From a phage, in sequence record PZ445454.1: 64,000 bases of DNA. One strand, written 5' to 3'. The notes below the pieces were generated by a model. The model made no database searches, was not told the origin of the DNA, and saw only the letters and a list, made by a program, of their open reading frames with translations. Both the position numbers and the translations under genes were made by a program. Below, piece after piece: positions 1 to 46,858 of this stretch. Position 1 is the first letter of the stretch, and each line of letters starts with the position of its first letter.

Positions 1-2
1 TG

Positions 3-371: not shown

Positions 372-376
372 AGTTT

Positions 377-406: not shown

Positions 407-407
407 T

Positions 408-1307: not shown

Positions 1308-1308
1308 A

Positions 1309-2111: not shown

Positions 2112-2633
2112 CTATTTAACCTCAAAAACTGGCTCAAGAACCAATATAAAGTCTACACAGTCATCTTCTTCATCCAGAATACCATCAAAGTTCTTAGGAA
2201 CGAAGTCGAAGAGGCTCATAACAAAACAGTCAGAAGTAACCCTAATAGTCCCTCCCATGTTCTCTACAGTCAACACTGTACGACTTTCTTTTACCTCCCT
2301 CAGAAGATTACTCACAAAGTCATCTAAGAAATACTTCATTAGTGACTTGAAACCTTTAGGGTAATCTGTACCAGAGTATGTTTCAATCTGTGGTACAAGC
2401 TTAACATTTATACTAGTCTTTGTTAAGAATGTATTAGAGAACATACTATCAGGTAACTTACAAACAGTCTTTCCAGTACCTTCATGTTCAATCTCAACAA
2501 AACCAGCTTCATCGCCACATGTAACTATTTTAAAAGATGCTTCATTCTCATACTGTGAAGCCATAAACTTTTTAAGCATCACTTTAAGGAAGTCTGCATG
2601 AGCATCTTGTAAGAAGATATCAATCATAGTCAA
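2112..2633 (-). CDS. hypothetical protein
   Basis: 173 aa ORF, tight packing with neighbours. Confidence 0.5.
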   Translation of the reverse strand: MTMIDIFLQDAHADFLKVMLKKFMASQYENEASFKIVTCGDEAGFVEIEHEGTGKTVCKLPDSMFSNTFLTKTSINVKLVPQIETYSGTDYPKGFKSLMKYFLDDFVSNLLREVKESRTVLTVENMGGTIRVTSDCFVMSLFDFVPKNFDGILDEEDDCVDFILVLEPVFEVK

Positions 2634-2640
2634 TCACCTA

Positions 2641-3000
2641 TTATGGGAACAAGCACTTAATGTCATCGTTTTTGAAAACAAAACTTGTGTAGTTATGACC
2701 ATCAACATCCAGCCAAACAGCCTGAACATCCACACCATCAAGATTTTGGTAAAGCTCTTTGATGAAGTGGTCTTTTACAATCTGACTGCTAGTTGTTTCC
2801 AACTTAATGTTCGAGATTGCTGAACCTACAGCCATATAGCCCATGACACGTTTCTTCTCAGTATGCTTAATCTTACCATCTTTGTAAGCCATAATGAGAT
2901 TGGAAAGAATCTTTACACCATAATACTTTTCAAGGTGAGTAGGTACACCATAAAAGCCTAATGCGAAGTTTTCAGAGTGGATAATGTTTTCACGTTTCAT
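2641..3000 (-). CDS. hypothetical protein
   Basis: 119 aa ORF. Confidence 0.5.
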   Translation of the reverse strand: MKRENIIHSENFALGFYGVPTHLEKYYGVKILSNLIMAYKDGKIKHTEKKRVMGYMAVGSAISNIKLETTSSQIVKDHFIKELYQNLDGVDVQAVWLDVDGHNYTSFVFKNDDIKCLFP

Positions 3001-3001
3001 A

Positions 3002-3331
3002 TTAATCTGCCAACCTTAAATTGAAATTAACACCAAATTTTTCACATACTTCCAACATATACTCAAGGGAGACGTTACCAGTGAGATGGATTATGTTGGA
3101 TACACGAGCCTGAGAGATACCACAAATTTTAGCAACTTGCTCTTGAGAAAGACCTCTTGATTTAATCTCTCTCTTAAAACGATGTGCAACAAAGTCTCTC
3201 ATTTCGTCTACATCCATTGGACAAATATAACTCTCCATTTCAGCCTCTCTATCAGCCTCCCAATCATCTTGTGGGGCATAAGGGTCAAAAACCTCATTCA
3301 TCTTTCTTCTTCCGTTTGCGTGAAGTATCAA
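3002..3331 (-). CDS. helix-turn-helix DNA-binding protein (XRE-like HTH at C-terminus)
   Basis: 109 aa; LSQEQVAKICGISQARVSNI resembles XRE/Cro-type HTH. Confidence 0.5.
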   Translation of the reverse strand: MILHANGRRKMNEVFDPYAPQDDWEADREAEMESYICPMDVDEMRDFVAHRFKREIKSRGLSQEQVAKICGISQARVSNIIHLTGNVSLEYMLEVCEKFGVNFNLRLAD

Positions 3332-3506
3332 TCAATGAATCTATATTTGTAGCCCTAACCTTTTCACGTTCATCATTAAGATAATCATCAAGAGCCTTTT
3401 CAATCTGTGAATCATCTTGACAAATGACTGTAAAGACTGTAAAGCCGTCTGTATCATCAATTATCTTACCATAACCGCTTCTGGGATGTAACTTTTTAAG
3501 AGCCAT
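3294..3506 (-). CDS. hypothetical protein
   Basis: 70 aa ORF, overlaps downstream gene start; lysine-rich C-terminus. Confidence 0.35.
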   Translation of the reverse strand: MALKKLHPRSGYGKIIDDTDGFTVFTVICQDDSQIEKALDDYLNDEREKVRATNIDSLIDTSRKRKKKDE

Positions 3507-3507
3507 A

Positions 3508-3891
3508 TCAAATACCTGTGCAGCTTCTGTTTTCTAAGAAATACTCAACACCATACATAGCTTTTTGCATCAAATCTTCTTTAAACTGGATACGATGATT
3601 GAGCATAACCTGTACATCAATATCATCATGGTGTTTCTCTTTAATATTTGCAGATTGCAGGAAATACTCTGCAAGAACGCGATACTGGTAGTCAGTCACC
3701 TTATCAGTCATCTCTGTCAAAGACTCTTCAGAGATTGGTTTAAGTAACTCACCTTTAGATAGCGCAACACCTTTAACAATCTGGCAAGTGTCTTCTGGAA
3801 CACCTGATAAGTCCACATTTGGAAGTTCTGTTGCATTAACTGGTAAATTCATTGCCATAACCATTGCAGCAGCTAATAAAACCTTTTTCAT
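3508..3891 (-). CDS. secreted/periplasmic hypothetical protein
   Basis: 127 aa; N-terminal signal-peptide-like MKKVLLAAAMVMAMNLPVNA. Confidence 0.55.
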   Translation of the reverse strand: MKKVLLAAAMVMAMNLPVNATELPNVDLSGVPEDTCQIVKGVALSKGELLKPISEESLTEMTDKVTDYQYRVLAEYFLQSANIKEKHHDDIDVQVMLNHRIQFKEDLMQKAMYGVEYFLENRSCTGI

Positions 3892-4030
3892 AATGACCTC
3901 AAAGTTATATTAAATTTTGTATTACATTGAGTATAAAAATAAGCTATAACACCTGACTTGTCAACAGATTTTATAGCTTATTTGGCAGATTTTTTATAAG
4001 GCTACTGCCATCCTTCCATACCTTACCTTA

Positions 4031-4084
4031 CCACACCTAACCATACCTAACCATACCTAACCATACCTAACCATACCTAACCAA
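4031..4084. repeat. tandem decamer repeat (CCATACCTAA, about 5 copies)
   Basis: cacacctaa ccatacctaa x4 read directly; lies in a 590 bp ORF-free intergenic region (3892-4481). Confidence 0.8.
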
Positions 4085-4481
4085 ACTACACCATACAATA
4101 CCTTGTTAAAAGACCCTCTTAAAAGACCTTTTAAAAAGGTAAGTCTCATTTTAATGTAGTTGAGACTAACTACCCATACCAAACAGCACCGCACTATGCC
4201 TTACCCCACCTCACCGAGCCTCGCCCCACATCACTTAAAAACCCTTTTCAAAGACTCTTAAGTGATGCTGGTGAGTACCCGTTGGTTTATGCTGCTCAGT
4301 ATACTCACCAAATTTTCTATGTCAACAACTTTTATATAAAAGTCCTGATAGCTATATGTGTTACAAAACAGAAGATTGTGAACAAGACACCCATTGCAAA
4401 GGATGTGTTCAAAAGTTTACTTGTTATGTAAGACAACACAAAGATAACTAATGCAAATAGTATGATTATGCTTAGCATAGT

Positions 4482-5585
4482 TTACTCATAATCCCTAATA
4501 ACTAGTCCGACAGGGAACTGTAAAGAACCCTTACGAGTCATCTTCTGGAACTGAACCGTTAAAGGCTTCCCGATAAACTCATCAGGATGCTCAGCAAGAT
4601 ACTGTTTCTTCTCATGAGTAGTCTTCCATGAGACATCTACAAAGACGTTAGGAAGAGTCTCTACAACGAACTTACCATGACCACGTTTATCGGTCTTTAC
4701 ACCAGTCACTTTAAACTCTTCAGTGTGCATCTTCTTGTGCTTAATCAAGAAGTATGAACGGTGACCACACTCATAGAAGGAGTCTTCAGAGATTGAACGG
4801 TACATTGCACCTTCAAACTTGGCTTCAACCCACTTATCATGAGCTTCATCAAACTCTTCCCAAGAATTTACACGACGAGATTTAACAGGGACAACTTTAC
4901 AGCCATCTCTAAAGTCATTCAATGGTGAAGTCTCAATAATATCTCTACGCTCAGGCCACGTTTTAGTACTGTCACAGATATCATACCAGTAGAACTTAAG
5001 TAAGTGTCTGTCAGGATTGTCTTCATTTTTAATCATGGAGACAATATCTTCTAAGTCCCACCCATGAGCATAAATCTCTCCATCAAATTCATCAACATCT
5101 TTGTGGAGCCTTAACATTGCCATAATGTCAGGTATTAGTTCAGTAGGGATTTTGTAAACAGTATTCTCACGAGAATATGCTGTAAATACACTGCCAATAC
5201 TTAAGTGTCTTGAAATTCTACAACGTACACCATCAAGTTTTGGTTGAGCATCAGCAGGGAACTTCAGATACTTTGCATGACTAACCTTTGCAGCGTCATG
5301 AGCAAGCTGTACACCTACCTTTTCAGTATTCTGTGCAGACTCTTTTGTGTAAGCATAACCTTTACGGTCAACTTGCTTTTTATACTTAGCAGCAACTTCA
5401 AAGAGAGCTTGCTGTTCAGCGTTACGCTCATTCTTTTTACCGATGTTTTTCGGTTCTGCTGTATACTCTTCAAACATCATCTTGCCATTTTCTTTACCGT
5501 AGGTTGTAATAACTTTGTCACCTACAGCAACGCATGACCAGACGTTAAAAGAGCCATCTTTATTTTGTTTGTACAGAATTGTCAT
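4482..5585 (-). CDS. ATP-dependent DNA ligase
   Basis: Nucleotidyltransferase motif I KLDGVRC and DGEIY motif; ORF track starts at 5621 but the internal Met at 5585 has a better RBS (AGAGGT). Confidence 0.65.
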   Translation of the reverse strand: MTILYKQNKDGSFNVWSCVAVGDKVITTYGKENGKMMFEEYTAEPKNIGKKNERNAEQQALFEVAAKYKKQVDRKGYAYTKESAQNTEKVGVQLAHDAAKVSHAKYLKFPADAQPKLDGVRCRISRHLSIGSVFTAYSRENTVYKIPTELIPDIMAMLRLHKDVDEFDGEIYAHGWDLEDIVSMIKNEDNPDRHLLKFYWYDICDSTKTWPERRDIIETSPLNDFRDGCKVVPVKSRRVNSWEEFDEAHDKWVEAKFEGAMYRSISEDSFYECGHRSYFLIKHKKMHTEEFKVTGVKTDKRGHGKFVVETLPNVFVDVSWKTTHEKKQYLAEHPDEFIGKPLTVQFQKMTRKGSLQFPVGLVIRDYE

Positions 5586-5778
5586 TTTTAACCTCTGAGT
5601 GATACCAAGTGTAACAAGCATTACATGCGTAAAGCTCTAAGTCATTTTTATCTGGTTTATGGAAACAGTTTGACCCACAACGACACCGGAATAGTTTACC
5701 ATCAACACGAAGAATGAATGTTTCAAGCTCACCATCTTCTGTAAGAACTGCGTTCTTAAGTTTATCTTCTACAGTCAT
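5560..5778 (-). CDS. small zinc-finger protein
   Basis: 72 aa; CRCGSNC...CNAC cysteine pairs. Confidence 0.45.
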   Translation of the reverse strand: MTVEDKLKNAVLTEDGELETFILRVDGKLFRCRCGSNCFHKPDKNDLELYACNACYTWYHSEVKNDNSVQTK

Positions 5779-6080
5779 TTTCTCTTACCACCAATCTCTA
5801 CGTCAATCACTTGAACATCACCAGCAACATCAAACTTATGAATGATGCTTTCCACAGTGTAAGTCCAACCCTCGATTCGAACCAACTCACCTTCTCGTGG
5901 GACGATTGGGTTACGTTGAGCTACGGTTGTAGTGGAGTGAACAACATCATAACAGTAGATATAGTTTACTAGGACTTCCATCTTGAAAACCTCACTCAAT
6001 AACAGTAGTGTGTGATTGACCATTTTTGCCATAGCTATAAGATGTTGTTGTTTGAGAGTTTGGGCATCTGACAACAACAA
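5775..6080 (-). CDS. hypothetical protein
   Basis: 101 aa ORF (non-ATG start in track); overlaps the next ORF. Confidence 0.35.
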   Translation of the reverse strand: MLLSDAQTLKQQHLIAMAKMVNHTLLLLSEVFKMEVLVNYIYCYDVVHSTTTVAQRNPIVPREGELVRIEGWTYTVESIIHKFDVAGDVQVIDVEIGGKRK

Positions 6081-12618: not shown

Positions 12619-14596
12619 AGGTCGTAAATTGAAAGAGGCTGGTCAGTTTGTTGGTCATTGCGCATGTCCACGTTGTGGTTCATCAGATGCTGGTTCAATC
12701 TATCATCATGACGATGATTCTTATTCAATGACTTGCTTTAGTTGTAACAAAGGTTTCCCAGAATGGGATTTTGATAAAGGACAAATCGTGAGCACTTATT
12801 CTACTGGTTCAGACAATAAAAACCGTACTTTCCGTGGAATGGATTTAGACGATGTAAAAGAAAACCTAGAAGCAATGGACTTGAAAGATAGGAAGATTCC
12901 TGCAAAAGTCCTTGAACGCTTAGGTATCAAGGTTGACATTGACAGTGACGGTGAAATTGATGCGCACTTCTATCCAACTTACAAACGTAATGAAGATGGT
13001 AAGCTAGAACATGTTGGCTACCGTGTTCGTCACCGTTACCCAGAAGACCATCCAAAAGAGCACCTACGTGGTAAGCTAAAAGACTTTTCAGGTGGTGTTG
13101 GAGACATTAAAGGTGAACTGGCAATGTTCGGTTCATGGATTGCTCCAGAAGGTGGTAACCGTCTATTCATCTGGGAAGGTGAGATGGAATGTGCGACAGC
13201 AATCTATATGACCTCTCTTGCGATTAAAGACAAGTCTCGTCGTAAGAATTACTGTCATGTATCTGTTCCGTCAGGTGCAAACATCAAGTCTATCAAAGAT
13301 AACTATCAGTACATCACATCATTTGATGAAATCTACTTGTGCTTTGATAACGATGAAGCAGGTGCTAAAGCTACCAAAGAGGCTGCTGGTATCTTACCTA
13401 TTGAGAAGGTTCGTTTATTCCAGTATCCAGAGGGTGTAAAAGACCTTAACGAATGGTGGACAAAGTTCTATAAAGAGAAAGACACAGTTCTGGAAGGATT
13501 TAAGCAGCGTATCTACAACGCACCTCGTTACTGTCCTGCTGGTATCAAGAACTTTGCAGATGGTTTTGAGGCAATGAAGAATCGTGGTCAGATTCCATTG
13601 ATTCCTTTCCCAGAATCTTTCGGGGATTTGAACAGACTGACTTACGGTGGTTATGGTTTGGGTGAGATTACGACTATTGCAGCACCATCTTCAGTAGGTA
13701 AGTCAGCTTACACTCGTGAGATGATTTATTCAGCTTGGAAAGAAACTGATTACAATATCGGTGTAATTCCTGTAGAAGATACTTACGAAGAACTTATGGA
13801 AATGCTCTGTGCAATCCACCTGAGCAAGCAGATTTCTGAGATTCCTTATGACGAACGTGATTGGGATGAATTGAAGGAAGCACACGCAGAACTGTCTAAA
13901 GGCCGTCGTATACATATCGTTGACCATCAAGGGGCAATTGACCAAGATAACCTGCTGGAATTTGTTGACTATCTTGTTAACAGTTTAGATTGCAAGATTA
14001 TCATTCTTGACCCTATTACATTGGCTCTGTCACGTTCCGATACGGATGAAGAGGAAGTTTTGTCTGAGCTATTGCGTCGTTGTAAACGCTACCAGTATGC
14101 ACAGGTAAACGTCTGTCACGTTCGTAAGAGTGCAGGTGGTCAGAAAGCTAACTCTGAAGGTGGAGATATCTCTGAAGAGGATATTAAAGGCTCTGGTGCG
14201 TATTTCCAGATTTCTATGAACAACATTCTGTTAATGCGCAACAAGGTTGACCCAGACCCTGTTAAGAAAAACTTGACAAAAATCAAGTTAACTAAATGTC
14301 GTCGTCACGGTAAGTCAACGGGTATTGCTGGTCATACTTGGTACAATCCAGATACAGGGCGTCTCATTAAAGCATCTGGTTGTGGAGTTGACATTGATGG
14401 TGCAGCAGAAAATATCCGGCAACAGTTTGGTATTGGTGAGGCTGAAGACCATTACGATGACTCTTTGCCACATTATGAGGATGAAGTGTTTGACCGTGAG
14501 ACTGGTGAAGTCTATACTGATGAGCAGCGTCAAAGCTCAACGATTCCACCTGTATTAAGTGAGGATGCAGATGACTGCCCGTTCGAAACTGAGTGA
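12605..14596 (+). CDS. bifunctional DNA primase/helicase (T7 gp4-like)
   Basis: 663 aa; N-terminal Cys4 zinc ribbon CPRCGS...CFSCNKG, central TOPRIM-like region, C-terminal DnaB-type Walker A AAPSSVGKSAYT. Confidence 0.85.
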   Translation: MLMSKGRKLKEAGQFVGHCACPRCGSSDAGSIYHHDDDSYSMTCFSCNKGFPEWDFDKGQIVSTYSTGSDNKNRTFRGMDLDDVKENLEAMDLKDRKIPAKVLERLGIKVDIDSDGEIDAHFYPTYKRNEDGKLEHVGYRVRHRYPEDHPKEHLRGKLKDFSGGVGDIKGELAMFGSWIAPEGGNRLFIWEGEMECATAIYMTSLAIKDKSRRKNYCHVSVPSGANIKSIKDNYQYITSFDEIYLCFDNDEAGAKATKEAAGILPIEKVRLFQYPEGVKDLNEWWTKFYKEKDTVLEGFKQRIYNAPRYCPAGIKNFADGFEAMKNRGQIPLIPFPESFGDLNRLTYGGYGLGEITTIAAPSSVGKSAYTREMIYSAWKETDYNIGVIPVEDTYEELMEMLCAIHLSKQISEIPYDERDWDELKEAHAELSKGRRIHIVDHQGAIDQDNLLEFVDYLVNSLDCKIIILDPITLALSRSDTDEEEVLSELLRRCKRYQYAQVNVCHVRKSAGGQKANSEGGDISEEDIKGSGAYFQISMNNILLMRNKVDPDPVKKNLTKIKLTKCRRHGKSTGIAGHTWYNPDTGRLIKASGCGVDIDGAAENIRQQFGIGEAEDHYDDSLPHYEDEVFDRETGEVYTDEQRQSSTIPPVLSEDADDCPFETE

Positions 14597-36621: not shown

Positions 36622-36647
36622 AGGCTGCTTCGGCGGCCTTTTTTATT
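36622..36647 (+). terminator. intrinsic terminator
   Basis: AGGCTGC-TTCG-GCGGCCT followed by TTTTTT. Confidence 0.6.
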
Positions 36648-36705
36648 TGTATTTTGTGCAGAGTGCTGTATAATTGATGTCACGATAAACTAAACAGGAG
36701 AACCA

Positions 36706-39762: not shown

Positions 39763-39955
39763 CTTCTGCAAAGATTGTGCTATCGAAATGTTCGGACGTG
39801 ATACAGGTGACTTAAAAGGTCTTATCACTGAAGATGACTTTAAGGCTGGCTATGCAATGCCAGTAATCTGTGAAGGTTGTGGATGTATCTGGGTAGACCA
39901 CGAAGGACAGCGTGTAAAACCTTCAGAAGATAAAGAATCTTGGGAGAGATGCTAA
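39677..39955 (+). CDS. hypothetical protein (Cys-rich)
   Basis: 92 aa; CKDC...CEGCGC. Confidence 0.35.
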   Translation: MDSSLNHWKTLKVVVVKASSFKRQLFMADFCKDCAIEMFGRDTGDLKGLITEDDFKAGYAMPVICEGCGCIWVDHEGQRVKPSEDKESWERC

Positions 39956-40741
39956 ATGGGTATTGTAAAAATCATCAATGGGGATATCTTCTCCGCATTT
40001 GATAAAGGTAAGTTTGATATTATTGGTCACGGTTGCAACTGTATGAACTTAATGGGTGCAGGTATCGCTGACAAGATTTCTAAACTTTACCCAAAAGCAT
40101 ATGAGACAGATACAGAAGTTTATCTGTATGCAGGTGGTATAGGCCACAAACCCTGTGAAAATTTACTAGGCAACTTCTCTGTAGCACGTTTAAAACAAGG
40201 CCGTATAGCTAACCTTTACACTCAGCTTAAGACTGGTAAAGATGCCCGATACAGTGCTTTAGAGTCATCTCTGAAACAGCTTAACAGATACTGTGAAGTT
40301 AATCAGTTGAAGAAAGTTGGTTTACCTATGATTGGTGCAGGTATCGGTGGACTTGACCCTCAAGCCGTCACCGTTATCATTAATCAGGTGATGAAGAGCG
40401 TAGATGTCTATCTATATGTCTACGAAGGAGAGATGTACTACAAGTTACGCTCAGGTTGGAAGAACTACTGTGAACCAGAATACTTTGCAGGTGTAGTAGT
40501 GTTCACTGACAATGCAGTTACCCTCTTCAGACGAAGAAAAGGTAAGATACATCAAAGTAACCCTCCGGTTGAAAAGATGTCTCTAAGTAACGCTCTAGTT
40601 ACCCACCTGTCGAAGAGCAATCACAGAATTGCCGTGACGTTTGGTAGTGATGCCGATACATATATCTATGCAAGAACTGATGAGGATATCGAGACAGTTT
40701 TCTCTTCACCAGAAGTTACCTTCTTAGACGCAAAGAACTAA
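39956..40741 (+). CDS. Macro-domain protein (ADP-ribose binding/processing)
   Basis: 261 aa; N-terminal INGDIFSAFDKGKFDIIGHGCNCMNLMGAGIADKI and later GLPMIGAGIGGLDP match Macro-domain signatures. Confidence 0.6.
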   Translation: MGIVKIINGDIFSAFDKGKFDIIGHGCNCMNLMGAGIADKISKLYPKAYETDTEVYLYAGGIGHKPCENLLGNFSVARLKQGRIANLYTQLKTGKDARYSALESSLKQLNRYCEVNQLKKVGLPMIGAGIGGLDPQAVTVIINQVMKSVDVYLYVYEGEMYYKLRSGWKNYCEPEYFAGVVVFTDNAVTLFRRRKGKIHQSNPPVEKMSLSNALVTHLSKSNHRIAVTFGSDADTYIYARTDEDIETVFSSPEVTFLDAKN

Positions 40742-40807
40742 GAAACTCTGTAGAATATTCACAATAGATTAAGCCTTTCTTATCTGGTAAATTTTTCAGG
40801 TAAGGAG

Positions 40808-41010
40808 GGCTTTTTCATTTTAGAATTGTGCAGGTAGAGTTCTGTAGAGAAATCTGTAGAGAGAATTTTGAACTCCAAAGAGAAAATTCATTTTCAAACT
40901 GTGCAGGTAATCTCCAAAGAGCTTTTTCATTTTCAAAACGTGCAGACCCCGCTCAGGTCGGGCAAGAAAAATCATTTTAGAATTGTGCAGGTAGGTGGGT
41001 GCAGGTGGGG
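40808..41010. repeat. four direct repeats of a ~25 nt motif (consensus about TCATTTTMRAAYKGTGCAGGTA); iteron-like
   Basis: Copies at about 40811-40837, 40883-40910, 40922-40948, 40968-40995 read directly; two overlapping ORF-track ORFs here are probably spurious. Confidence 0.7.
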
Positions 41011-41170
41011 ATGTCGCCATTTCTCACAAGGCTACCACATCTGGAAATAAAAGTCAACAGAAAAATTTGTAGCGGATTGAAAAATAATTCTTGATTGTAG
41101 TTCTGTTTTGTGGTATTCGCGCGCACCCGTTTCATTACAATTTTTGCAAAAAATATTTTTAAAATTCCTA

Positions 41171-41199
41171 TTGACTCTTTGAGTATGGTTATCTAATAT
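41171..41199 (+). promoter_or_regulatory. sigma70-like promoter for the first cassette gene
   Basis: TTGACT-N17-TAATAT upstream of 41250. Confidence 0.5.
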
Positions 41200-41249
41200 T
41201 TGCATCAGACGGGCAAGCAAGCCCACTTCCTAAACTGGAGAATCTAAAA

Positions 41250-41456
41250 ATGCTGTACAGTCGCGAATTGATGGTTACAACTAACATTAACACAAAGGCA
41301 AAACGTTTTTACATACAAATCTGTGGCGTATGGTCCAGAATATCAGAAGCTGACTATTGCAACTATGTAGAAACGGCTATAAACTCTAATTGCTACCTTA
41401 CAAGAAATACAAGAAAGTACATAAGACAGACAGCAATTTACTACTACGATAAATAA
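41250..41456 (+). CDS. small hypothetical protein (cassette gene 1)
   Basis: 68 aa; preceded by conserved leader CTAAACTGGAGAATCTAAAA-ATG. Confidence 0.55.
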   Translation: MLYSRELMVTTNINTKAKRFYIQICGVWSRISEADYCNYVETAINSNCYLTRNTRKYIRQTAIYYYDK

Positions 41457-41543
41457 AGTACTTTACAAGGGGCTTATAGTTCGATAAAGTAAGCCCCAGA
41501 TAAAGAGCTTTGCTAACTAACCTTAAACTAGGAGAATCTGAAA
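41456..41543 (+). repeat. conserved intergenic regulatory cassette, type A
   Basis: TTTACA-like box, hairpin GGGGCTTATAGTTCGATAAAGTAAGCCCC, leader CTAAACTAGGAGAATCTGAAA-ATG. Confidence 0.7.
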
Positions 41544-41924
41544 ATGGCATATCGTGCACCTAAATTCATCAACAAAGACAACTTTCGCAACGCACTGGAG
41601 AAGTCACTTGATGAAAAATTTAACGGTAAATTGATTATTGTTCACGCATTCAATTTTAAGTATGATATTAATGGGAATAAAATCAACCATTACACGGCAA
41701 CCATGATAGATGGTACACTTTCAAGTGAAAAAGCCGTACTGAATGCACTTGCTGGACGCGGTAAAAACCTGATAAAATGTGATAAGCGACGTTATCAGGG
41801 TGGCGCATATGGTTACGATGATGCTGTTTACCATCTTGAAAACATGGGCTATCAAGTAGAAAAAGCTGGAGTATCACAAATTATCGGGAGTGATGGTTAT
41901 GTGACAATTTTCAAAATTAACTAA
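41544..41924 (+). CDS. hypothetical protein (cassette gene 2)
   Basis: 126 aa; conserved leader directly upstream. Confidence 0.6.
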   Translation: MAYRAPKFINKDNFRNALEKSLDEKFNGKLIIVHAFNFKYDINGNKINHYTATMIDGTLSSEKAVLNALAGRGKNLIKCDKRRYQGGAYGYDDAVYHLENMGYQVEKAGVSQIIGSDGYVTIFKIN

Positions 41925-42014
41925 TAAAGTACTTTACAGGGGGCTTATAGTTCGATAAAGTAAGCCCCAGATAAAGAGCTTTACCACTAAATCCTAAATT
42001 GGAGAATCTGAAAA
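41925..42014 (+). repeat. conserved intergenic regulatory cassette, type A
   Basis: Near-identical to 41456-41543. Confidence 0.7.
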
Positions 42015-42272
42015 ATGGCTATTATTAAAAACGTTGTAATTTCTGCAAAAACTCGTGATGACGCTCGCGTTATGGCTAAAAAGTTATGTGGGAAAGTGGT
42101 TGACAACGGGAAACAATCTGCTGTAAGATGGGGTGTAAAGGTTGATAAACATTTAACCTTAAAACGTAGTTCAAACAACCTTTTTAAAGGTGTAAAATCA
42201 CTCGGTAAAGTGAACGTTTTTACCAAAAAAGGTTATAAAATGCACTTATCATTAACTGGCAATTTAATCTGA
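42015..42272 (+). CDS. small hypothetical protein (cassette gene 3)
   Basis: 85 aa; starts MAII, conserved leader. Confidence 0.55.
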   Translation: MAIIKNVVISAKTRDDARVMAKKLCGKVVDNGKQSAVRWGVKVDKHLTLKRSSNNLFKGVKSLGKVNVFTKKGYKMHLSLTGNLI

Positions 42273-42360
42273 TAAAGTACTTTACAAGGGGCTTAAAAGT
42301 TGATATCTTAAGCCCCAGATAAAGAGCTTTACCACTAAATCCTAAACTGGAGAATCTAAA
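42273..42360 (+). repeat. conserved intergenic regulatory cassette, type A variant
   Basis: GGGGCTTAAAAGTTGATATCTTAAGCCCC hairpin plus conserved leader. Confidence 0.7.
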
Positions 42361-42873
42361 ATGAAAACTGTAGACGCTACCTTTGAAGTTGTAAAAGAAA
42401 AATTCACCATTATTTATGAAGCTGTCAATTGCTTTGAAGCAAGCCATAATCTTGATAATTGGAAGTTTACAGATGACCATCAAGGCGGTGTGACGATTAA
42501 AAATCCTAACTGTCAGCGTAATGAATTTAAATATGCAATCCCTTTGCATTACAGCCTTAAGCAGCTTTCAAGTGACTATGCAAAACAAGGCCGTGAGAAT
42601 CCATCGAAAGAGGCTTACACGAGCTTACAGAAAGAACTAGAAAGAGATTTAGAGGCTTCAGAGTACAACCTTGCCGCGAAAGTTGTGGATGCAAACGGTA
42701 ACACGGTTTTAGAAAGTTTTTATCTTGGTTATGCTTTCGATTGGTGCTATCGTGACGGCGATGATTTAGAGGGTAGACTAAAAGAAGAGGTGAACAATTC
42801 AGACGCAGAAACTGAAGTATTAGAACGTTTGGAATCGTTGAAAGACTCAGTGATGAATATCTTTAAGAACTAA
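42361..42873 (+). CDS. hypothetical acidic protein (cassette gene 4)
   Basis: 170 aa. Confidence 0.6.
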   Translation: MKTVDATFEVVKEKFTIIYEAVNCFEASHNLDNWKFTDDHQGGVTIKNPNCQRNEFKYAIPLHYSLKQLSSDYAKQGRENPSKEAYTSLQKELERDLEASEYNLAAKVVDANGNTVLESFYLGYAFDWCYRDGDDLEGRLKEEVNNSDAETEVLERLESLKDSVMNIFKN

Positions 42874-42965
42874 ATAGATTTCTTTACACGGGGCTAACAA
42901 GCTGATATGGTAGCCCCAGATAAAGAGATTTATCAAATAAAGCCCTTAAACTAGGAGATTCTAAA
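42874..42965 (+). repeat. conserved intergenic regulatory cassette, type A variant
   Basis: GGGGCTAACAAGCTGATATGGTAGCCCC hairpin plus conserved leader. Confidence 0.65.
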
Positions 42966-43262
42966 ATGAAATTATCGAATAAAGTTCGTGAAAATCTAAG
43001 CAAGTTACTCAACAAAATTGATTTTATCGAGACATCAAGAAATAATCATGATGTTATGGAATGGTTGCACGGCAAAATAAAAGGCCGTCGCGTAGTGATT
43101 TGCTTATGGAATAGTTGCAGGGAATATAAAAAACCTGTATTGCAAGTAAATATCTATGATGATACTTTTAAAAGTCCAGTAAAATCTAAAAGTGACTTAC
43201 TAGATTCTTATGAGATAACTGTAAATGGCAAAGTATCACGTAAAGAGGAAACACCATGTTAA
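42966..43262 (+). CDS. hypothetical protein (cassette gene 5)
   Basis: 98 aa. Confidence 0.55.
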   Translation: MKLSNKVRENLSKLLNKIDFIETSRNNHDVMEWLHGKIKGRRVVICLWNSCREYKKPVLQVNIYDDTFKSPVKSKSDLLDSYEITVNGKVSRKEETPC

Positions 43263-43588
43263 TGACTGGTATCACTGCAATCATTGCCATTTTCGCGCTA
43301 TATAAGGCATATAAAGCCTATAATCTAGCAAATAAGGCAATCACACAGCAGGTTAGCAATAACCTTGTAGAAAGCTTTCTAGGGCGCCTCAGTGATGAGC
43401 AAATAAAGCGGCTAGAGATGAGCTTCAGATATAAAGCGAAAACCTATCAGATAAGTGACATCTTCAAAGATGATTTTCAGTTAGTCGATGATTATAATTC
43501 ACTGATAAATGCTTTAAATATCAGTGATTTGAAAGACTATTACGCTGTAATTGTTCAAGAATTGAGCAAACGAAAACAAAATGTTTGA
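43256..43588 (+). CDS. hypothetical protein with N-terminal TM helix
   Basis: 110 aa; translationally coupled to the previous gene (no cassette upstream). Confidence 0.5.
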   Translation: MLMTGITAIIAIFALYKAYKAYNLANKAITQQVSNNLVESFLGRLSDEQIKRLEMSFRYKAKTYQISDIFKDDFQLVDDYNSLINALNISDLKDYYAVIVQELSKRKQNV

Positions 43589-43677
43589 CACTGGTTTTCA
43601 GATAGATTAAATTACACATCAACGGGGTGGGAATGACCTTCCCCACTAAGTAAAGTCCTAAACTGGAGATTCTGAAA
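43585..43677 (+). repeat. conserved intergenic regulatory cassette, type B (includes promoter TTGACA-N17-TAAATT)
   Basis: TTGACACTGGTTTTCAGATAGATTAAATT, hairpin GGGAATGACCTTCCC, leader CTAAACTGGAGATTCTGAAA-ATG. Confidence 0.7.
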
Positions 43678-43950
43678 ATGTATACTACTAACAACGGTCG
43701 TACTTTAAACGTAACCATACGCCACTACATCAACGGGGTGATGCACTTTGAAGACTTACAAGCTGAGCAACATATCTTAGATTGGCAAGTTGCAGGACTC
43801 CAAAAAACTGCTACAGGATACGGGAAAAAGATTCCAACCAGTTGGAAAGTATACTACGAAGGCCGTTTGCGCAGAATTTATCAAGATGTATATAGCAATA
43901 GCGCAACAAGTTACATCATGGTAAAAGGTAAAAAGCTGCATTTAGTGTAA
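43678..43950 (+). CDS. small hypothetical protein (cassette gene 6)
   Basis: 90 aa. Confidence 0.55.
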   Translation: MYTTNNGRTLNVTIRHYINGVMHFEDLQAEQHILDWQVAGLQKTATGYGKKIPTSWKVYYEGRLRRIYQDVYSNSATSYIMVKGKKLHLV

Positions 43951-44035
43951 AGTACTTTACAAGGGGCTTATAGTTCGATAAAGTAAGCCCCAGATAAAGA
44001 GCTTTACCACTAAATCCTAAATTGGAGATTCAAAA
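43951..44035 (+). repeat. conserved intergenic regulatory cassette, type A
   Basis: Near-identical to 41925-42014. Confidence 0.7.
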
Positions 44036-44440
44036 ATGGCTATTAATAACCGTGAATTATCAATCTTAAAAGCACGTTTGACCGTTAACCGGATTAATGT
44101 TATTACATCATCAGCACCGGACGAAACATTGCACAACATTATTGGGAAGATTCAAAGTGTTATCTTAGACGTTGAAAACGTAAAAAACTCATTGGCTGAC
44201 GTTGCAGCAGGTATCACGCTAGACGGTGCACAATATGAAATGACCGACATGTTAGGCAAATCTAAGGTAATGAATAAAGAGCTTGATTTGAAAATGTTTC
44301 GGTTTGCTGTTAAAGTGTGGCTATCTGTCGAATATGACGCTAACTTTGCAATCGCTGACTTTTTCGCCACTTGGTTACAACGTAATTTGACAAATCATGA
44401 TTTTCGTGGTATCTGCGATGCAATTTATGCAGAACTCTAA
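44036..44440 (+). CDS. hypothetical protein (cassette gene 7)
   Basis: 134 aa; starts MAIN. Confidence 0.6.
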   Translation: MAINNRELSILKARLTVNRINVITSSAPDETLHNIIGKIQSVILDVENVKNSLADVAAGITLDGAQYEMTDMLGKSKVMNKELDLKMFRFAVKVWLSVEYDANFAIADFFATWLQRNLTNHDFRGICDAIYAEL

Positions 44441-44540
44441 AAATTTTGTTGACACTGGTTTTCAGATAGATTAAATTACACATCAACGGGGCGGGAATGA
44501 CCTTCCCCACTAAATAAAGTCCTAAACTGGAGATTCAAAA
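44441..44540 (+). repeat. conserved intergenic regulatory cassette, type B (promoter TTGACA-N17-TAAATT)
   Basis: Near-identical to 43585-43677. Confidence 0.7.
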
Positions 44541-44738
44541 ATGGCTATTATTAATGGTTTAACCATTGAAACTACACACATCAAAGACATTAAAGTTGGT
44601 GATGTAGTTCTTTTTCACGGCGTAGAAAAAACCGTCACGGCGAAAGATATTACAGAGGACTCCTTCATGGGCCGGTCACTCTTCGGTGATTCTTATTGCT
44701 TAGGTTATCGCGCAGTTTTAAAAGTTATCAAAAAATAA
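44541..44738 (+). CDS. small hypothetical protein (cassette gene 8)
   Basis: 65 aa; starts MAII. Confidence 0.5.
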   Translation: MAIINGLTIETTHIKDIKVGDVVLFHGVEKTVTAKDITEDSFMGRSLFGDSYCLGYRAVLKVIKK

Positions 44739-44830
44739 CCGATAAAGTACTCTACAAGGGGCTTAAAAGTTGATATCTTAAGCCCCAGATAAAGAGCTTT
44801 ACCACTAAATCCTAAACTGGAGATTCAAAA
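44739..44830 (+). repeat. conserved intergenic regulatory cassette, type A variant
   Basis: Near-identical to 42273-42360. Confidence 0.7.
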
Positions 44831-45373
44831 ATGAAATGCTTTCACGGTACTACTCAAGAAAACTTCCTCAATCTGATTAATAACGGTGACAAGCCATCAG
44901 GTGCATGGAATTGTTCGGATATGGACGGCAATTTTTACGTGTACCCAGAAAATAAAATCTATGGCGACGATGAGGAAGAGATAATCTCTGAAGGCATCCA
45001 GCAAGCGTTAGGTAATGCCACTATTACGGCTGCTTTCCAGATGAAAACCCAAAATATTGTTATCTTAGAACTTGATATCCCAGAGGATGACCTAAATGAT
45101 GATTATTCTTGTGATAATATGTCTGGCGTAGCAAGTTTTACAGAATACTTCGATTTAAATTGGATTAAAAAGGTTTACGTAACCGAGTTTAATGCGATGT
45201 TTTCGCCTTTTTGTCTTCCTTCATTGGATAACCCAAATTTAAACTATCTTGAGGAGTCTCTGGAGCTTCTTGCTAAAAGTGTTCAACAGTCGGACAGTAT
45301 TCAGGTTTTTTGTGACATCATGGATACACTGACAGGAAACATCACAGAAGAGGATTTAAAGAGCTTTTTCTGA
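44831..45373 (+). CDS. hypothetical strongly acidic protein (cassette gene 9)
   Basis: 180 aa, Asp/Glu-rich. Confidence 0.6.
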   Translation: MKCFHGTTQENFLNLINNGDKPSGAWNCSDMDGNFYVYPENKIYGDDEEEIISEGIQQALGNATITAAFQMKTQNIVILELDIPEDDLNDDYSCDNMSGVASFTEYFDLNWIKKVYVTEFNAMFSPFCLPSLDNPNLNYLEESLELLAKSVQQSDSIQVFCDIMDTLTGNITEEDLKSFF

Positions 45374-45414
45374 AAACCTATACAATCACCTTATAAACAC
45401 TGATTAGCCCCTCA

Positions 45415-45437
45415 CAGGGGCTTTTAAGAGGCTTAAA
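45415..45437 (+). terminator. hairpin plus T-run
   Basis: AGCCCC-TCACA-GGGGCT followed by TTTT. Confidence 0.45.
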
Positions 45438-45439
45438 TC

Positions 45440-45673
45440 ATGCTTACAACCGTTTATCTTATCCTTTCTATTTGTAACGGTCATTCATGCGATTTTAAAG
45501 GGCTTGAAGAGTTTACAGGAAGTAAAGAAAATGCTATTCAAGTTTGCCAGATAGCAAGGCAAGACTACCCCGCCAGTGATGATATACAATGTTACTTTAA
45601 GACAGAAGATGATGATGGAATCTATTTCGACAGCGTTGACGGTCAATATGAAATTATCATTGAAAAAGACTAG
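45440..45673 (+). CDS. small hypothetical protein
   Basis: 77 aa; hydrophobic N-terminus; no conserved cassette leader. Confidence 0.45.
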   Translation: MLTTVYLILSICNGHSCDFKGLEEFTGSKENAIQVCQIARQDYPASDDIQCYFKTEDDDGIYFDSVDGQYEIIIEKD

Positions 45674-45762
45674 ACAAGCCTGATAAAAGTCTGTAAATTG
45701 TCAATCAACGGGGCGGGAATGACCTTCCCCACTAAATAAAGTCCTAAACTGGAGATTCAAAA
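45674..45762 (+). repeat. conserved intergenic regulatory cassette, type B
   Basis: CAACGGGGCGGGAATGACCTTCCCCACTAAATAAAGTCCTAAACTGGAGATTCAAAA-ATG. Confidence 0.7.
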
Positions 45763-46104
45763 ATGGCTTATGTAACCGTAATTACCGATAAAGCTGGCTC
45801 ATCTTGGTCAACTCAAGTAAGCGATAATCTATCACCTATGCAGTGCCTAAAATACTTTGAGCAATGGAATAAAGGTGAGGATACAAGCCCCTTTCAAGTG
45901 ATGCAGATTATACATGTAGACAATGAAGGGAAGAAAACGACTTTAAACAGCGAGTTCTACGCAACCCGATTTGAAACGAGATGTAAAACGATGAAGTTAT
46001 TACGTGAATCCGGTTATGCCCATATCGCCGCGTTAATCTGGGATGACCTGCTAAAAAACCAACGTATGAACTATGTAAAACCTGAAAAAATATTCATCAG
46101 TTAA
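45763..46104 (+). CDS. hypothetical protein (cassette gene 10)
   Basis: 113 aa. Confidence 0.55.
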   Translation: MAYVTVITDKAGSSWSTQVSDNLSPMQCLKYFEQWNKGEDTSPFQVMQIIHVDNEGKKTTLNSEFYATRFETRCKTMKLLRESGYAHIAALIWDDLLKNQRMNYVKPEKIFIS

Positions 46105-46239
46105 TCAATAACTTACAAAAAACTTTTAAAAAAGTGTTGACAATACCCCTTGACATTGGTAACTTTGTTCGAGGGGGTTTATCTAAAAGGGATTAACTTA
46201 AAAGATTCTTTATAGATAAACTTAAAAAATTGCTTGCAA

Positions 46240-46327
46240 TCAGATATCAAAACAAGTAAATTACTAATCAACGGTGAGGGAATGAACTTCCTCACTAAAT
46301 AAAGTCCTTAAACTAGGAGATTCAAAA
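46240..46327 (+). repeat. conserved intergenic regulatory cassette, type B variant
   Basis: CAACGGTGAGGGAATGAACTTCCTCACTAAATAAAGTCCTTAAACTAGGAGATTCAAAA-ATG. Confidence 0.65.
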
Positions 46328-46858
46328 ATGAACAAGTTCAAAGCTATCAACTACATCCGTTCAAGTAGTGTCATGTCAAAGCCTGTTAAAGATACCTATG
46401 AATTTCGTTGCAATGGTGTACACTTTGCAACCATTACCAAATCAGAAAACGGGGCTTATTACGTTCATCGTCGTAATGTTGCAACAGTTGTAGTCTCTCA
46501 CTTTATGCAAGCTGTAGCAGAATTATTACCGTTATTCTTAGGGATTTACTTGGATGAGTGTAAAAACGTTCACAACCACGTTAAAAGCCTTTTAAACAGT
46601 TATAAAATGGCTTATGAACGTTCTATCAAGTCCTTAAACAAGTTCTATAAAGCCCCTGTAAATACTGTTTCAATGGCCTACGCTGCAAATGGTGAAAGAG
46701 TAAACCTATCCGATGTGGAAGATATCGAGCTTTACAACCATCGGCCTAACGGTTACTCTCAGACTCTAGGTGAAGGTTTAACTTTCAATATCAAGAACTT
46801 AGAAAAAACTTTAAAAGATATTGAAAAAGATATTGACGAGACAATCAAAAATCTGTAA
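46328..46858 (+). CDS. hypothetical protein (cassette gene 11)
   Basis: 176 aa. Confidence 0.6.
   Translation: MNKFKAINYIRSSSVMSKPVKDTYEFRCNGVHFATITKSENGAYYVHRRNVATVVVSHFMQAVAELLPLFLGIYLDECKNVHNHVKSLLNSYKMAYERSIKSLNKFYKAPVNTVSMAYAANGERVNLSDVEDIELYNHRPNGYSQTLGEGLTFNIKNLEKTLKDIEKDIDETIKNL

What the first reader, a model, noticed from the sequence alone, without database searches (positions are those of the whole stretch)
40808..41010. Four ~25 nt direct repeats immediately upstream of the cassette array
Four direct repeats (TCATTTT..AA..GTGCAGGTA) lie in the intergenic region before the strong promoter of the first cassette gene. This is an iteron-like arrangement that could be an operator for a phage or host regulator, or an origin element. 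The two ORF-track ORFs overlapping it are probably artefacts.
Basis: seen in the sequence. Interest (0 to 1): 0.55.

Follow-up and report, generated by a model that had tools for sequence, protein, structure and literature searches.

The report
Conserved four-copy DNA motif array, Felix-O1-like phages
Four same-direction copies of a 28-base motif lie in one non-coding gap of a Felix-O1-type phage; the cluster occurs once per genome and is kept across the whole phage subfamily, so it is very probably a docking site for a still-unknown DNA-binding protein, but nobody has described it and its job is not established.

Summary
Four direct copies of G-N-W5-TCATTTY-N6-GTGCAK start at 40815, 40888, 40927 and 40972 (+ strand). 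They lie in a 509-bp gap between the terminator of a macro-domain gene and the first early promoter.

The window is a Felixounavirus. A motif matrix scores the four copies at 34-42 bits. The next-best site in the whole 86-kb Felix O1 genome scores 9.4 bits, which is within the range of shuffled sequence. The array is therefore unique in the genome.

The array is present at the same junction and in the same orientation in every one of about 45 Ounavirinae loci inspected, spanning four genera and one unclassified lineage. Copy number is 3-5. The core is conserved (pairwise diversity 0.06), while N6 and the spacers vary (about 0.30-0.33).

Several readings are excluded:
- It is not the genome terminus; the terminal repeat lies about 6.7 kb downstream.
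- It is not a gene; the reading frame across the copies differs between lineages.
- It matches no Rfam family and shows no RNA fold signal.
- It is not a dispersed promoter class.

Best reading: a binding-site array for an unidentified sequence-specific protein. It most likely controls or insulates the junction between the rIIA-macro operon and the immediate-early cassette block. A replication origin is the main rival. No paper in the searched library describes it. Interest is moderate.

The parts
39956..40741 (+). Macro-domain ('phosphatase', Tk.4-like) gene. It is the last gene of the conserved rIIA-to-macro block and is always immediately upstream of the array.
   Evidence: Pfam PF01661 Macro, E=1e-7. 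PHROG 335. Annotations in relatives. A 148-aa macro protein also precedes the array in the divergent lineage L024.
40771..40821 (+). Intrinsic terminator (Felix O1 't13'): a 17-pair hairpin plus a T-tract. The T-tract is also the 5' part of repeat copy 1.
   Evidence: Terminator scan. Listed as t13 in Table 2 of PMC3185647.
40809..40836 (+). Repeat copy R1: GCTTTTTCATTTTAGAATTGTGCAGGTA
   Evidence: PWM score 42.2 bits.
40882..40909 (+). Repeat copy R2: GAAAATTCATTTTCAAACTGTGCAGGTA
   Evidence: PWM score 37.5 bits.
40921..40948 (+). Repeat copy R3: GCTTTTTCATTTTCAAAACGTGCAGACC
   Evidence: PWM score 34.2 bits.
40966..40993 (+). Repeat copy R4: GAAAAATCATTTTAGAATTGTGCAGGTA. It is orthologous to unit 3 of the Kolesnikvirus array.
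   Evidence: PWM score 38.1 bits. The only stretch that BLAST aligns to Erwinia and Hafnia phages is query 146-248, which is window 40887-40989.
40994..41007 (+). Half copy of the 3' part of the motif (GGTGGGTGCAGGTG). It is not conserved among relatives.
   Evidence: family D2. Relatives read ggtaggttttta at this position instead. The segment 40994-41049 is the most variable part of the gap, pi=0.47.
41050..41134 (+). Conserved block with a weak promoter-like site (TTGATT 41091-41096, 17-nt spacer, TATTCG 41114-41119). Its function is unknown.
   Evidence: Read from the sequence. Conserved in Mordin. pi=0.23.
41171..41199 (+). Sigma-70-type promoter of the first early cassette gene (TTGACT-17-TAATAT), with an A/T-rich upstream region.
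   Evidence: The 80-bp window 41130-41209 is 77.5% A+T. An equivalent promoter is annotated in phage ASO1B.
41250..41456 (+). First early cassette gene (68 aa, PHROG 5293, unknown function). It is absent from VpaE1-type phages, so it is not tied to the array.
47655..48244 (.). Context only: the direct terminal repeat, which marks the physical genome ends. It lies about 6.7 kb downstream of the array.
   Evidence: The 581-bp terminal duplication of phage D4 maps here. The BPS15Q2 record starts at window ~47641 and ends just before it, at ~47610.

Best explanation
The four repeats form an ancient cis-acting array, unique in the genome, of same-orientation binding sites for one sequence-specific DNA-binding protein. 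That protein is not identified and could be phage- or host-encoded.

Each site is bipartite and asymmetric. An A/T run and TCATTTY are separated from GTGCA(G/T) by a 6-bp A/T-rich spacer whose sequence is free to vary. The two conserved halves are therefore about one helical turn apart.

The array sits exactly at the junction between the terminator of the conserved rIIA-to-macro operon and the promoters of the immediate-early, hypervariable cassette block. That block fills the last ~6.7 kb before the terminal repeat.

My preferred mechanism is inferred, not shown. Protein bound at the array controls transcription across this junction. It either blocks read-through into the early block, acting as an insulator or roadblock backing up the terminator, or it represses or activates the adjacent first early promoters as infection proceeds.

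Shown: existence, uniqueness, orientation, position, deep conservation of the core with a free spacer, absence of coding potential and absence of RNA-fold signal.

Inferred: that a protein binds, which protein it is, and the transcriptional role.
For: Uniqueness
- The four copies score 34-42 bits. The next-best site in the complete Felix O1 genome scores 9.4 bits, within the shuffle range. This is one locus-specific element, not a dispersed signal.

Conservation
- The 509-bp gap matches 289 GenBank phage records.
- The array itself was seen in every Ounavirinae locus inspected: 31 IMG/VR stretches plus GenBank records of Felixounavirus, Mooglevirus, Suspvirus, Kolesnikvirus and an unclassified 88-kb lineage.
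- It is always on the same strand as the flanking genes and always directly after the macro gene.

Selection pattern typical of protein recognition
- Pairwise diversity is 0.06 in the core, 0.30 in N6, 0.33 in the inter-repeat spacers and 0.47 just downstream.
- Orthologous copies keep their own N6 across genomes, so the copies are old and are not being homogenised.

Copy number and spacing
- Copy number is 3-5. Spacing varies: 73/39/45, 75/41/45, 37/37/39, 36/148/38 and 75/45.
- This fits independently bound sites better than a folded RNA or a gene.

Position
- Copy 1 overlaps the terminator T-tract, and the sigma-70 promoter lies about 180 bp downstream of copy 4.
- Felix O1 ORFs 13, 16, 20, 21 and 22, which flank the array, are maximally expressed at 5 min (PMC3185647 Table 3).

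Exclusions
- No Rfam match.
- RNA fold z-scores of 0.14 and 0.15.
- The reading frame across the copies is not conserved.
Against: - No binding protein is identified. The neighbouring genes have no DNA-binding Pfam domain. The only HTH protein found in the window is a distant Xre type with no motif copy near its own gene.
- The distance from the last copy to the first promoter-like site varies (about 114-152 bp, read), and the intervening segment is the least conserved part of the gap. That argues against a precisely phased activator or repressor.
- Only the first promoters are near the array. The many downstream cassette promoters have no such sites, so the array cannot be a general early-promoter operator.
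- The spacing between copies is not in constant helical phase. At 10.5 bp per turn, 36-45 bp is about 3.4 to 4.3 turns.
- The diversity figures carry an ascertainment bias, because the IMG/VR loci were found by requiring two exact copies. The other copies, and the loci found by BLAST, were not constrained in this way.
Confidence: 0.4

Rival explanations
1. Replication-origin iterons. An unidentified phage initiator binds the four sites and, together with transcription from the adjacent strong promoters and their A/T-rich upstream DNA, opens the duplex for the T7-like primase-helicase and polymerase.
For: - The repeats are direct, same-orientation and unique in the genome.
- They lie next to strong promoters and a 77.5% A+T stretch.
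- The Felix O1 replisome is T7-like (PMC3185647). From my own knowledge, the T7 primary origin is a promoter pair plus an A/T-rich region.
- The Kolesnikvirus copies read CTATGCACA on the other strand. That is one mismatch from the DnaA-box consensus TTWTNCACA quoted.
Against: - No Rep-like initiator gene is adjacent or recognisable.
- Spacing is irregular and not in helical phase (36-45, 73-75 and 148 bp).
- A variable, G+C-rich segment (40942-41021 is 46-51% A+T; pi=0.47) separates the array from the A/T-rich DNA.
- Cumulative GC skew rises smoothly through 40.8 kb with no inflection. Its turning points are at about 10 kb and about 46-49 kb.
- The 1.66-kb terminal-repeat region looks more origin-like. 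It has about 20 TTAACA sites, many in 11-bp-spaced pairs, and 80-81% A+T windows.
- Felixounavirus copies match the DnaA box at only 6 of 9 positions (counting the N).
Confidence: 0.2
2. Non-functional or merely recombinogenic repeats. They could be duplicated terminator tails (CTTTTTCATTT is the usual terminator tail in this phage), or conserved 'linker' sequences that promote homologous exchange of the hypervariable cassette block.
For: - Terminators t5, t13 and t35 end in TTTTTCATTT or TTTTTTATTTT.
- The array marks the border between a conserved block and a hyperplastic block whose genes differ between phages.
- Copy number varies from 3 to 5.
Against: - Core positions are about five times less diverse than N6 and the spacers lying within and between the copies. 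Neutral or gene-conversion models predict uniform similarity.
- Copies keep individual N6 sequences across genera, so there is no homogenisation.
- Half of the copies carry A5 instead of T5, so they are not terminator tails.
- GTGCA is invariant although it is not part of any terminator.
Confidence: 0.1
3. An RNA-level linear motif. Read-through transcripts from the macro operon would carry four UCAUUUU..GUGCAG sites for an RNA-binding protein, for example a processive antiterminator that lets polymerase cross the many cassette terminators.
For: The orientation is always that of the flanking genes. The position just after a terminator and ahead of a terminator-rich gene array is where antitermination signals are placed in lambdoid phages (my own knowledge).
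Against: - No fold signal on either strand (z = 0.14 and 0.15).
- No Rfam family.
- The array lies downstream of a 17-pair terminator and upstream of the early promoters, so most transcripts of either unit would not contain it.
- No boxA/boxB-like structure was seen.
Confidence: 0.08
4. A polar barrier or DNA-entry pause site. The array, about 7.3 kb (8%) from the right physical end, would delimit a first-entering early segment, functionally like the phage T5 injection stop signal, or would act as a one-way block to forks or polymerases coming from the terminal repeat.
For: - The array and the terminal repeat bracket the immediate-early cassette block in Felixounavirus. The same layout is seen in the divergent lineage L024/L060.
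- All sites share one polarity.
- The T5 iss is likewise a conserved, repeat-rich, non-coding region bordering the 7.9% first-step segment, and it contains DnaA boxes including TTATGCACA (bioRxiv 10.1101/866236). The Kolesnikvirus copies are one mismatch from such a box.
Against: - Two-step entry has never been reported for Felix O1 in the papers found.
- It is not known which end enters first.
- No T5 A1/A2-like proteins were recognised; the cassette proteins match only PHROGs of unknown function.
- The cassette genes are transcribed towards the end, whereas the T5 coding region 1-6022, which holds the conserved pre-early genes dmp, A1 and A2, is transcribed inward.
- The T5 iss is far more complex, with inverted repeats and palindromes. 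None are conserved here.
Confidence: 0.06

Closest known systems
Iterons of phage lambda ori and of theta-replicating plasmids
   Same: Several same-orientation copies of one roughly 20-bp protein-binding motif, confined to one non-coding locus and lying near A/T-rich DNA and a promoter.
   Different: Spacing here is irregular and long (36-75 bp) rather than about two helical turns. No initiator gene is adjacent or overlapping. A variable G+C-rich segment separates the array from the A/T-rich DNA. Origin activity is untested.
Operator or upstream binding-site arrays of transcription factors with bipartite asymmetric sites (AraC/XylS/MarA-type boxes; T4 MotA boxes)
   Same: The site is asymmetric, with two conserved halves about one helical turn apart, a free spacer and an A/T-rich half. 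It lies in a promoter-upstream region.
   Different: The motif is not a marbox. Copies match 9 of 14 specified positions at best, and the A-run is 2 bp out of register with the consensus, which I recalled from memory. It is not a MotA box. The copies do not overlap a -35 region, no -10 element follows them, and the distance to the promoter is not fixed.
Phage T5 injection stop signal (iss) region
   Same: A conserved, repeat-rich, non-coding region at the inner border of a terminal early-gene segment of about 8% of the genome. The Kolesnikvirus copies contain near-consensus DnaA boxes.
   Different: The T5 iss lies inside a 10-kb terminal repeat and is built from inverted repeats, palindromes and eight paired DnaA boxes. 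Here there are 3-5 simple direct repeats outside a ~0.6-kb terminal repeat. Two-step entry is unknown in this phage group.
Lambda cosB R-sites and SPP1 pacL/pacR boxes (small-terminase binding arrays)
   Same: Three to four copies of a roughly 16-25-bp motif within about 180 bp, unique in the genome.
   Different: Those arrays abut the cleavage site. This one is about 6.7 kb from the terminal repeat, and the repeat itself carries a different motif cluster (TTAACA).
Polar terminator/barrier arrays (Tus-Ter; Sal-box/TTF-I elements downstream of rRNA genes)
   Same: Same-polarity, protein-binding repeats placed just after the end of a transcription unit.
   Different: There is no sequence similarity to Ter, and no cognate protein is known. 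This is a purely architectural analogy drawn from general knowledge.

Membership tests
Replication-origin iterons | Multiple direct repeats of one motif at a single locus | tested here: met
   Four copies, unique in the genome.
Replication-origin iterons | Regular, helically phased spacing of the repeats | tested here: not met
   Spacings of 73/39/45, 75/41/45, 37/37/39 and 36/148/38 bp in different lineages.
Replication-origin iterons | Cognate initiator gene adjacent to or overlapping the repeats | tested here: not met
   Flanking genes are a macro-domain protein and small proteins with no Pfam or annotated PHROG function. A novel initiator cannot be excluded.
Replication-origin iterons | Directly adjoining A/T-rich unwinding element | tested here: inconclusive
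   A 77.5% A+T stretch exists at 41130-41209, but it lies about 140 bp away, beyond a variable segment with 46-51% A+T windows, and it doubles as a promoter upstream element.
Replication-origin iterons | Demonstrated origin activity, or a strand-skew switch at the site | tested here: not met
   There is no GC-skew inflection at 40.8 kb. Skew follows gene orientation here, so this is weak evidence. Origin activity cannot be tested with these tools.
Promoter-linked operator | Sites overlap the promoter they control or lie at a fixed distance from it | tested here: not met
   The last copy lies about 114-152 bp from the first promoter-like -35 in different phages. The intervening DNA is the least conserved part of the gap.
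Promoter-linked operator | Identified cognate regulator | not testable with these tools
   Only an Xre-type HTH protein at 3002-3331 was found. Nothing links it to the motif.
Phage-specific promoter class (T7-type or MotA-type) | Copies dispersed upstream of many genes; a -10 element at fixed distance | tested here: not met
   No further copies in 86 kb. No TAnnnT at constant spacing after GTGCA (read).
Terminal repeat / pac or cos site | Located at or next to the physical genome ends | tested here: not met
   The terminal repeat maps to window ~47655-48244, about 6.7 kb away.
Structured non-coding RNA | Match to a curated family, or folding energy better than shuffles | tested here: not met
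   Rfam gives only sub-threshold noise in the gap and tRNAs elsewhere. z = 0.14 and 0.15.
Protein-coding ORF (the ORFs at 40820-41020 on the - strand, and 40828-40980 and 40868-41050 on the + strand) | Reading frame preserved among relatives | tested here: not met
   The relative frames of the copies differ in every lineage.
CRISPR-like array or repeat mimic | Repeats of 28-37 bp separated by unique spacers of similar length; usually a palindromic repeat | tested here: not met
   Spacers are 11-17 bp (one is 45 bp), and the repeat has no conserved dyad.
T5-type injection stop signal | Inverted-repeat/palindrome complex with paired DnaA boxes at the border of the first-step-transfer DNA; A1/A2 genes | tested here: not met
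   Only direct repeats are present. The inverted-repeat pairs reported in this stretch of the window are imperfect, and I did not test whether relatives keep them. The window has only 3 consensus DnaA boxes, none in the array. The cassette proteins have no known function. Two-step entry itself cannot be tested here.
DnaA-box cluster | TTWTNCACA with at most 1 mismatch in each copy | tested here: inconclusive
   Kolesnikvirus copies read CTATGCACA or TTATGCACG, 8 of 9. Felixounavirus, Mooglevirus and Suspvirus copies read ACCTGCACA, 6 of 9.

The most novel reading that the evidence does not exclude
The array is a polar stop or boundary signal that, together with the terminal repeat, delimits a ~7-kb immediate-early 'first-delivered' segment. 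That would make it a T5-like staged genome delivery or a one-way barrier in a myovirus group where nothing of the kind is known. The near-DnaA-box form of the motif in Kolesnikviruses hints at a host membrane-associated binder.
Probability: 0.06. Interest if true: 0.8.

Novelty: new member of a known kind. Interest (0 to 1): 0.42.

Why it matters
Felix O1 is a classical Salmonella typing and biocontrol phage. Its relatives, such as BASEL phage Bas63, are becoming model systems. [quoted passage not shown] I also found no description of a mapped replication origin.

A single cis-element conserved across the subfamily, sitting exactly at the border of the immediate-early, hypervariable host-takeover block, is a concrete handle on those questions. 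The four sites can be used directly as bait to fish out the binding protein. They can also be deleted or moved to test early-gene control, origin function or DNA-entry polarity.

The element also matters for engineering. The cassette block next to it is the natural place to insert payloads, and the array may be needed in cis.

If it turns out to be only a local operator, the finding is ordinary.

Tried and rejected
- **Genome terminus or pac site.** Rejected. The 581-bp terminal duplication of phage D4 and the record ends of BPS15Q2 map to window ~47641-48244. UAB_Phi87 has an experimentally determined 608-bp terminal repeat (PMC4837284), but its record is not opened at the ends.
- **Known RNA family.** Rfam finds nothing in the gap and only tRNAs in the rest of the window.
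- **Structured RNA.** No fold signal.
- **Coding.** The reading frame is not conserved.
- **A fifth copy at 36643, after the rIIB terminator.** It scores 9.4 bits, which is chance level. It reads as an ordinary sigma-70 promoter, TTGTAT-16-TATAAT in the window and TTGAAA-16-TATA.. in Mooglevirus.
- **A dispersed promoter class.** No other copies exist.
- **Host-factor consensus sequences compared by eye, from my own knowledge.** These were the IHF, Fis, CRP and NtrC sites, the sigma-54 and sigma-E promoters, the marbox, XerCD/dif, Ter, ops, Chi, and the EcoKI and other type I restriction sites. None fits all copies. Chi occurs once in the window, elsewhere, and DnaA boxes occur three times, elsewhere.
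- **The same array outside Ounavirinae.** A looser three-copy pattern in viral contigs, and the two-copy pattern in 185,579 bacterial and archaeal genomes, returned only unrelated perfect tandem repeats. None was in Enterobacterales.
- **Literature.** Full-text searches found no description of these repeats. The Felix O1 paper lists other repeats and terminator t13 only. One search with badly chosen terms was wasted. The PhageMaP paper on Bas63 has no held supplementary data for intergenic sites.
- **Candidate binder among neighbouring genes.** No DNA-binding domains were found.
- **DNA curvature modelling.** Not attempted, because I could not vouch for wedge parameters recalled from memory.

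Full report
**What the window is**

Megablast of 39900-42300 finds 250 phage records. The best is Escherichia phage skuden at 96.8% identity, and nearly all hits are Felixounavirus (Ounavirinae) genomes of 84-90 kb. The window carries 25 tRNA genes at 58.5-63.6 kb, as expected for this group.

In Felix O1 coordinates, the finding lies between ORF13 and ORF15. ORF13 is a macro-domain protein annotated as 'phosphatase'.

**The observation**

The four copies are real. TCATTTT starts at 40815, 40888, 40927 and 40972 on the + strand, spaced 73, 39 and 45 bp apart.

With up to 2 mismatches there are 6 matches in 64 kb, against 0.45 expected from shuffles, and no shuffle reached 6.

From 69 distinct copies in related genomes, the conserved unit is 28 bp: G at -6, an A5 or T5 run, TCATTTY, an A/T-rich but variable N6, GTGCA, then G (or T in some lineages). 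Copy 3 ends in GACC. A non-conserved half copy follows copy 4.

**Anatomy of the 509-bp gap (40742-41250)**

In order along the + strand:
- The stop codon of the macro gene.
- A 17-pair intrinsic terminator, whose T-tract is the start of copy 1 (t13 in the Felix O1 paper).
- Copies 1-4.
- A variable, relatively G+C-rich segment, 40994-41049.
- A conserved block with a weak promoter-like site, 41050-41134.
- The A/T-rich upstream region and the sigma-70 promoter TTGACT-17-TAATAT at 41171-41199.
- The ribosome-binding site and a 68-aa gene.

All genes from about 10 kb to about 47 kb are on the + strand.

**Uniqueness**

A position-weight matrix covering -6 to +21 scores the four copies at 34-42 bits. 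The next-best site in the window scores 9.5 bits and in the complete Felix O1 genome 9.4 bits. Shuffled genomes reach 9.9-10.4 bits.

A look-alike at 36643, after the rIIB terminator, is at chance level. It is better read as an ordinary promoter, TTGTAT-16-TATAAT.

The array is therefore a single-locus element. That rules out a promoter or operator class used throughout the genome.

**Conservation**

The gap matches 289 GenBank phage records. In distant Erwinia and Hafnia phages (Kolesnikvirus), the only part BLAST still aligns is query 146-248, which is exactly copies 2-4.

Reading the loci shows the array at the same place and in the same orientation in every lineage:

| Lineage | Copies | Spacing (bp) |
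|---|---|---|
| Felixounavirus | 4 | 73/39/45 |
| Mooglevirus (Mordin) | 4 | 75/41/45 |
| Suspvirus type | 4 | 73/39/45 |
| VpaE1/phiWec172 type | 3 | 75/45 |
| Kolesnikvirus (3' half GTGCATAG) | 4, plus a degenerate one | 37/37/39 |
| Unclassified 88-kb metagenomic lineage L024 | 4, plus a degenerate one | 36/148/38 |

In L024 the upstream gene is again a macro-domain protein.

An exact two-copy pattern search of IMG/VR returned 31 stretches. All but two come from contigs of 51-94 kb, and nearly all of those are 84-94 kb. On inspection, all but one (L016, which the three-copy filter did not list) showed the array.

Looser searches of viral contigs, and a search of 185,579 prokaryotic genomes, found only unrelated perfect tandem repeats.

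**Selection pattern**

In an alignment of 27 distinct versions of the gap, mean pairwise diversity is:

| Segment | Diversity (pi) |
|---|---|
| 12 core positions of each copy | 0.06 |
| -6 to -1 | 0.14 |
| N6 | 0.30 |
| Inter-repeat spacers | 0.33 |
| Just downstream (40994-41049) | 0.47 |

Caveat: the IMG/VR loci were found by requiring two exact copies, which biases the core estimate downward. The other copies in those loci were unconstrained, and so were all copies in the loci found by BLAST. They are equally intact.

Orthologous copies keep their own N6 across genomes; for example, CAAACT in copy 2 and CAAAAC in copy 3. The copies are therefore old and are not being homogenised. Their cores have been maintained separately.

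Two short conserved blocks about one helical turn apart, with a free spacer, are the usual signature of a protein-recognition site.

**What it is not**

- *Not the terminus.* Phage D4's record carries a 581-bp terminal duplication that maps to window 47655-48244. The BPS15Q2 record is opened at the same point. Papers report terminal repeats of 581 bp and 608 bp in this group. The array is about 6.7 kb inside the right end.
- *Not coding.* The copies fall in different relative frames in each lineage. The three ORFs overlapping the array, and the 'hypothetical proteins' annotated there in some records (for example Mordin_126), are artefacts.
- *Not a recognisable RNA.* There is no Rfam hit and no fold signal on either strand.
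- *Not CRISPR-like.* The spacers are too short and the repeat has no conserved dyad.

**Mechanism**

Sequence alone cannot name the binder or the function, so this part is inference.

The placement is constant: directly after the terminator of the conserved rIIA-to-macro operon and ahead of the first promoter of the immediate-early cassette block. Felix O1 ORFs 13, 16, 20, 21 and 22 peak at 5 min.

That makes a transcriptional boundary or control element the most economical reading. It could be a protein roadblock or insulator reinforcing the terminator, or a site from which the adjacent early promoters are switched. I give this about 0.4.

Arguments against it:
- The distance to the promoter is variable.
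- Such sites are absent from the other cassette promoters.
- No regulator is identified.

The main rival is an iteron-type origin, at about 0.2. The elements one expects are nearby (strong promoters, A/T-rich DNA, a T7-like replisome). However:
- Spacing is irregular.
- No initiator gene is evident.
- GC skew shows no inflection.
- The terminal-repeat region, with its roughly 20 TTAACA sites (many in 11-bp pairs) and its extreme A+T content, looks more origin-like.

Minor rivals are neutral or recombinogenic repeats (0.1), a linear RNA motif (0.08), and a polar barrier or DNA-entry pause analogous to the T5 injection stop signal (0.06).

The last is the most novel reading the data allow. The array and the terminal repeat bracket the early block, about 8% of the genome, in both Felixounavirus and the divergent L024 lineage. 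The Kolesnikvirus copies are one mismatch from the DnaA-box consensus that Davison highlights in the T5 iss. But staged entry is unknown for this group, and the T5 element is built quite differently.

The protein at 3002-3331 is an Xre-type HTH_3 protein. Nothing connects it to this asymmetric motif, and no motif copy lies near its gene.

**Literature**

The Felix O1 genome paper lists twelve direct repeats of 24 bp or more and 17 terminators, but not this array. It states that temporal control of transcription in this phage is not understood. No paper in the searchable library contains the motif in a relevant context.

**Verdict**

The interpretation as a functional iteron-like array is supported, but the choice between operator and origin remains open.

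This is a new, undescribed member of a familiar kind of element. It is of moderate interest, mainly as an experimentally tractable entry point into the regulation and replication of Felix-O1-like phages.

Noticed in passing
window 47171-48832 (terminal repeat ~47655-48244): A 1662-bp ORF-free region contains the direct terminal repeat. It is packed with about 20 copies of TTAACA/TGTTAA, many in pairs 11 bp apart. Three + strand copies sit at the left boundary and mostly - strand copies lie towards the right. These are the only TTAACA clusters in the window, and they include some of the most A/T-rich 80-bp windows (80-81%). They are possibly terminase, replication or promoter (-35-like) sites.
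   Followed up: partly
L024 + L060 merged and reverse-complemented (IMGVR_UViG_3300045988_063805): 5361-5733 and 13104-13592: In this divergent 88-kb lineage, a cluster of 8 TTAACA sites follows the TCATTTT..GTGCA array directly. A second TTAACA/TGTTAA cluster lies 7.4 kb downstream, at the probable terminal repeat, with the early cassette genes between them. The two motif systems may therefore be functionally linked.
   Followed up: partly
window 41455-41511, 41933-41961, 43956-43984 and other gaps between the small genes 41250-47000: The cassette genes are separated by repeated modules in which a promoter (TTTACA-17-TAAAGT) is interleaved with a hairpin (GGGGCTTA/TAAGCCCC). These correspond to the 57-bp repeats noted in the Felix O1 paper. 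From memory, they resemble the 'promoter-early stem-loop' modules of T4-type hyperplastic regions. The gene content of this block differs between close relatives.
   Followed up: partly
window 41050-41134: A block in the same gap that is better conserved than its surroundings (pi=0.23). It contains TTGATT-17-TATTCG, which lacks the usual final T of a -10 element, and an A/T palindrome, ATTTTTGCAAAAAT. It could be a second promoter, a small transcript or another binding site.
   Followed up: no
window 36622-36675: The terminator after rIIB is followed by TTATTTGTATTTTGTGCAGAGTGCTGTATAAT. GTGCAG in the promoter spacer is conserved in Mooglevirus too, although the whole site scores at chance level against the repeat matrix. 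I read it as an ordinary promoter, but a distant relationship to the repeat motif is not excluded.
   Followed up: partly
GenBank GU169904.1 128687-129193; MG065664.1 69894-70399: Records named 'Staphylococcus phage SA1' (147 kb) and 'Campylobacter phage A132' carry this coliphage gap at 88% and 97% identity. This suggests chimeric or mislabelled records.
   Followed up: no
window 41237-41252 and 41531-41546: Nearly identical translation-initiation regions (GGAGAATCT[A/G]AAAATG) precede successive cassette genes. The Mordin record annotates similar 14-bp 'repeat_region' features just upstream of its ribosome-binding sites.
   Followed up: no
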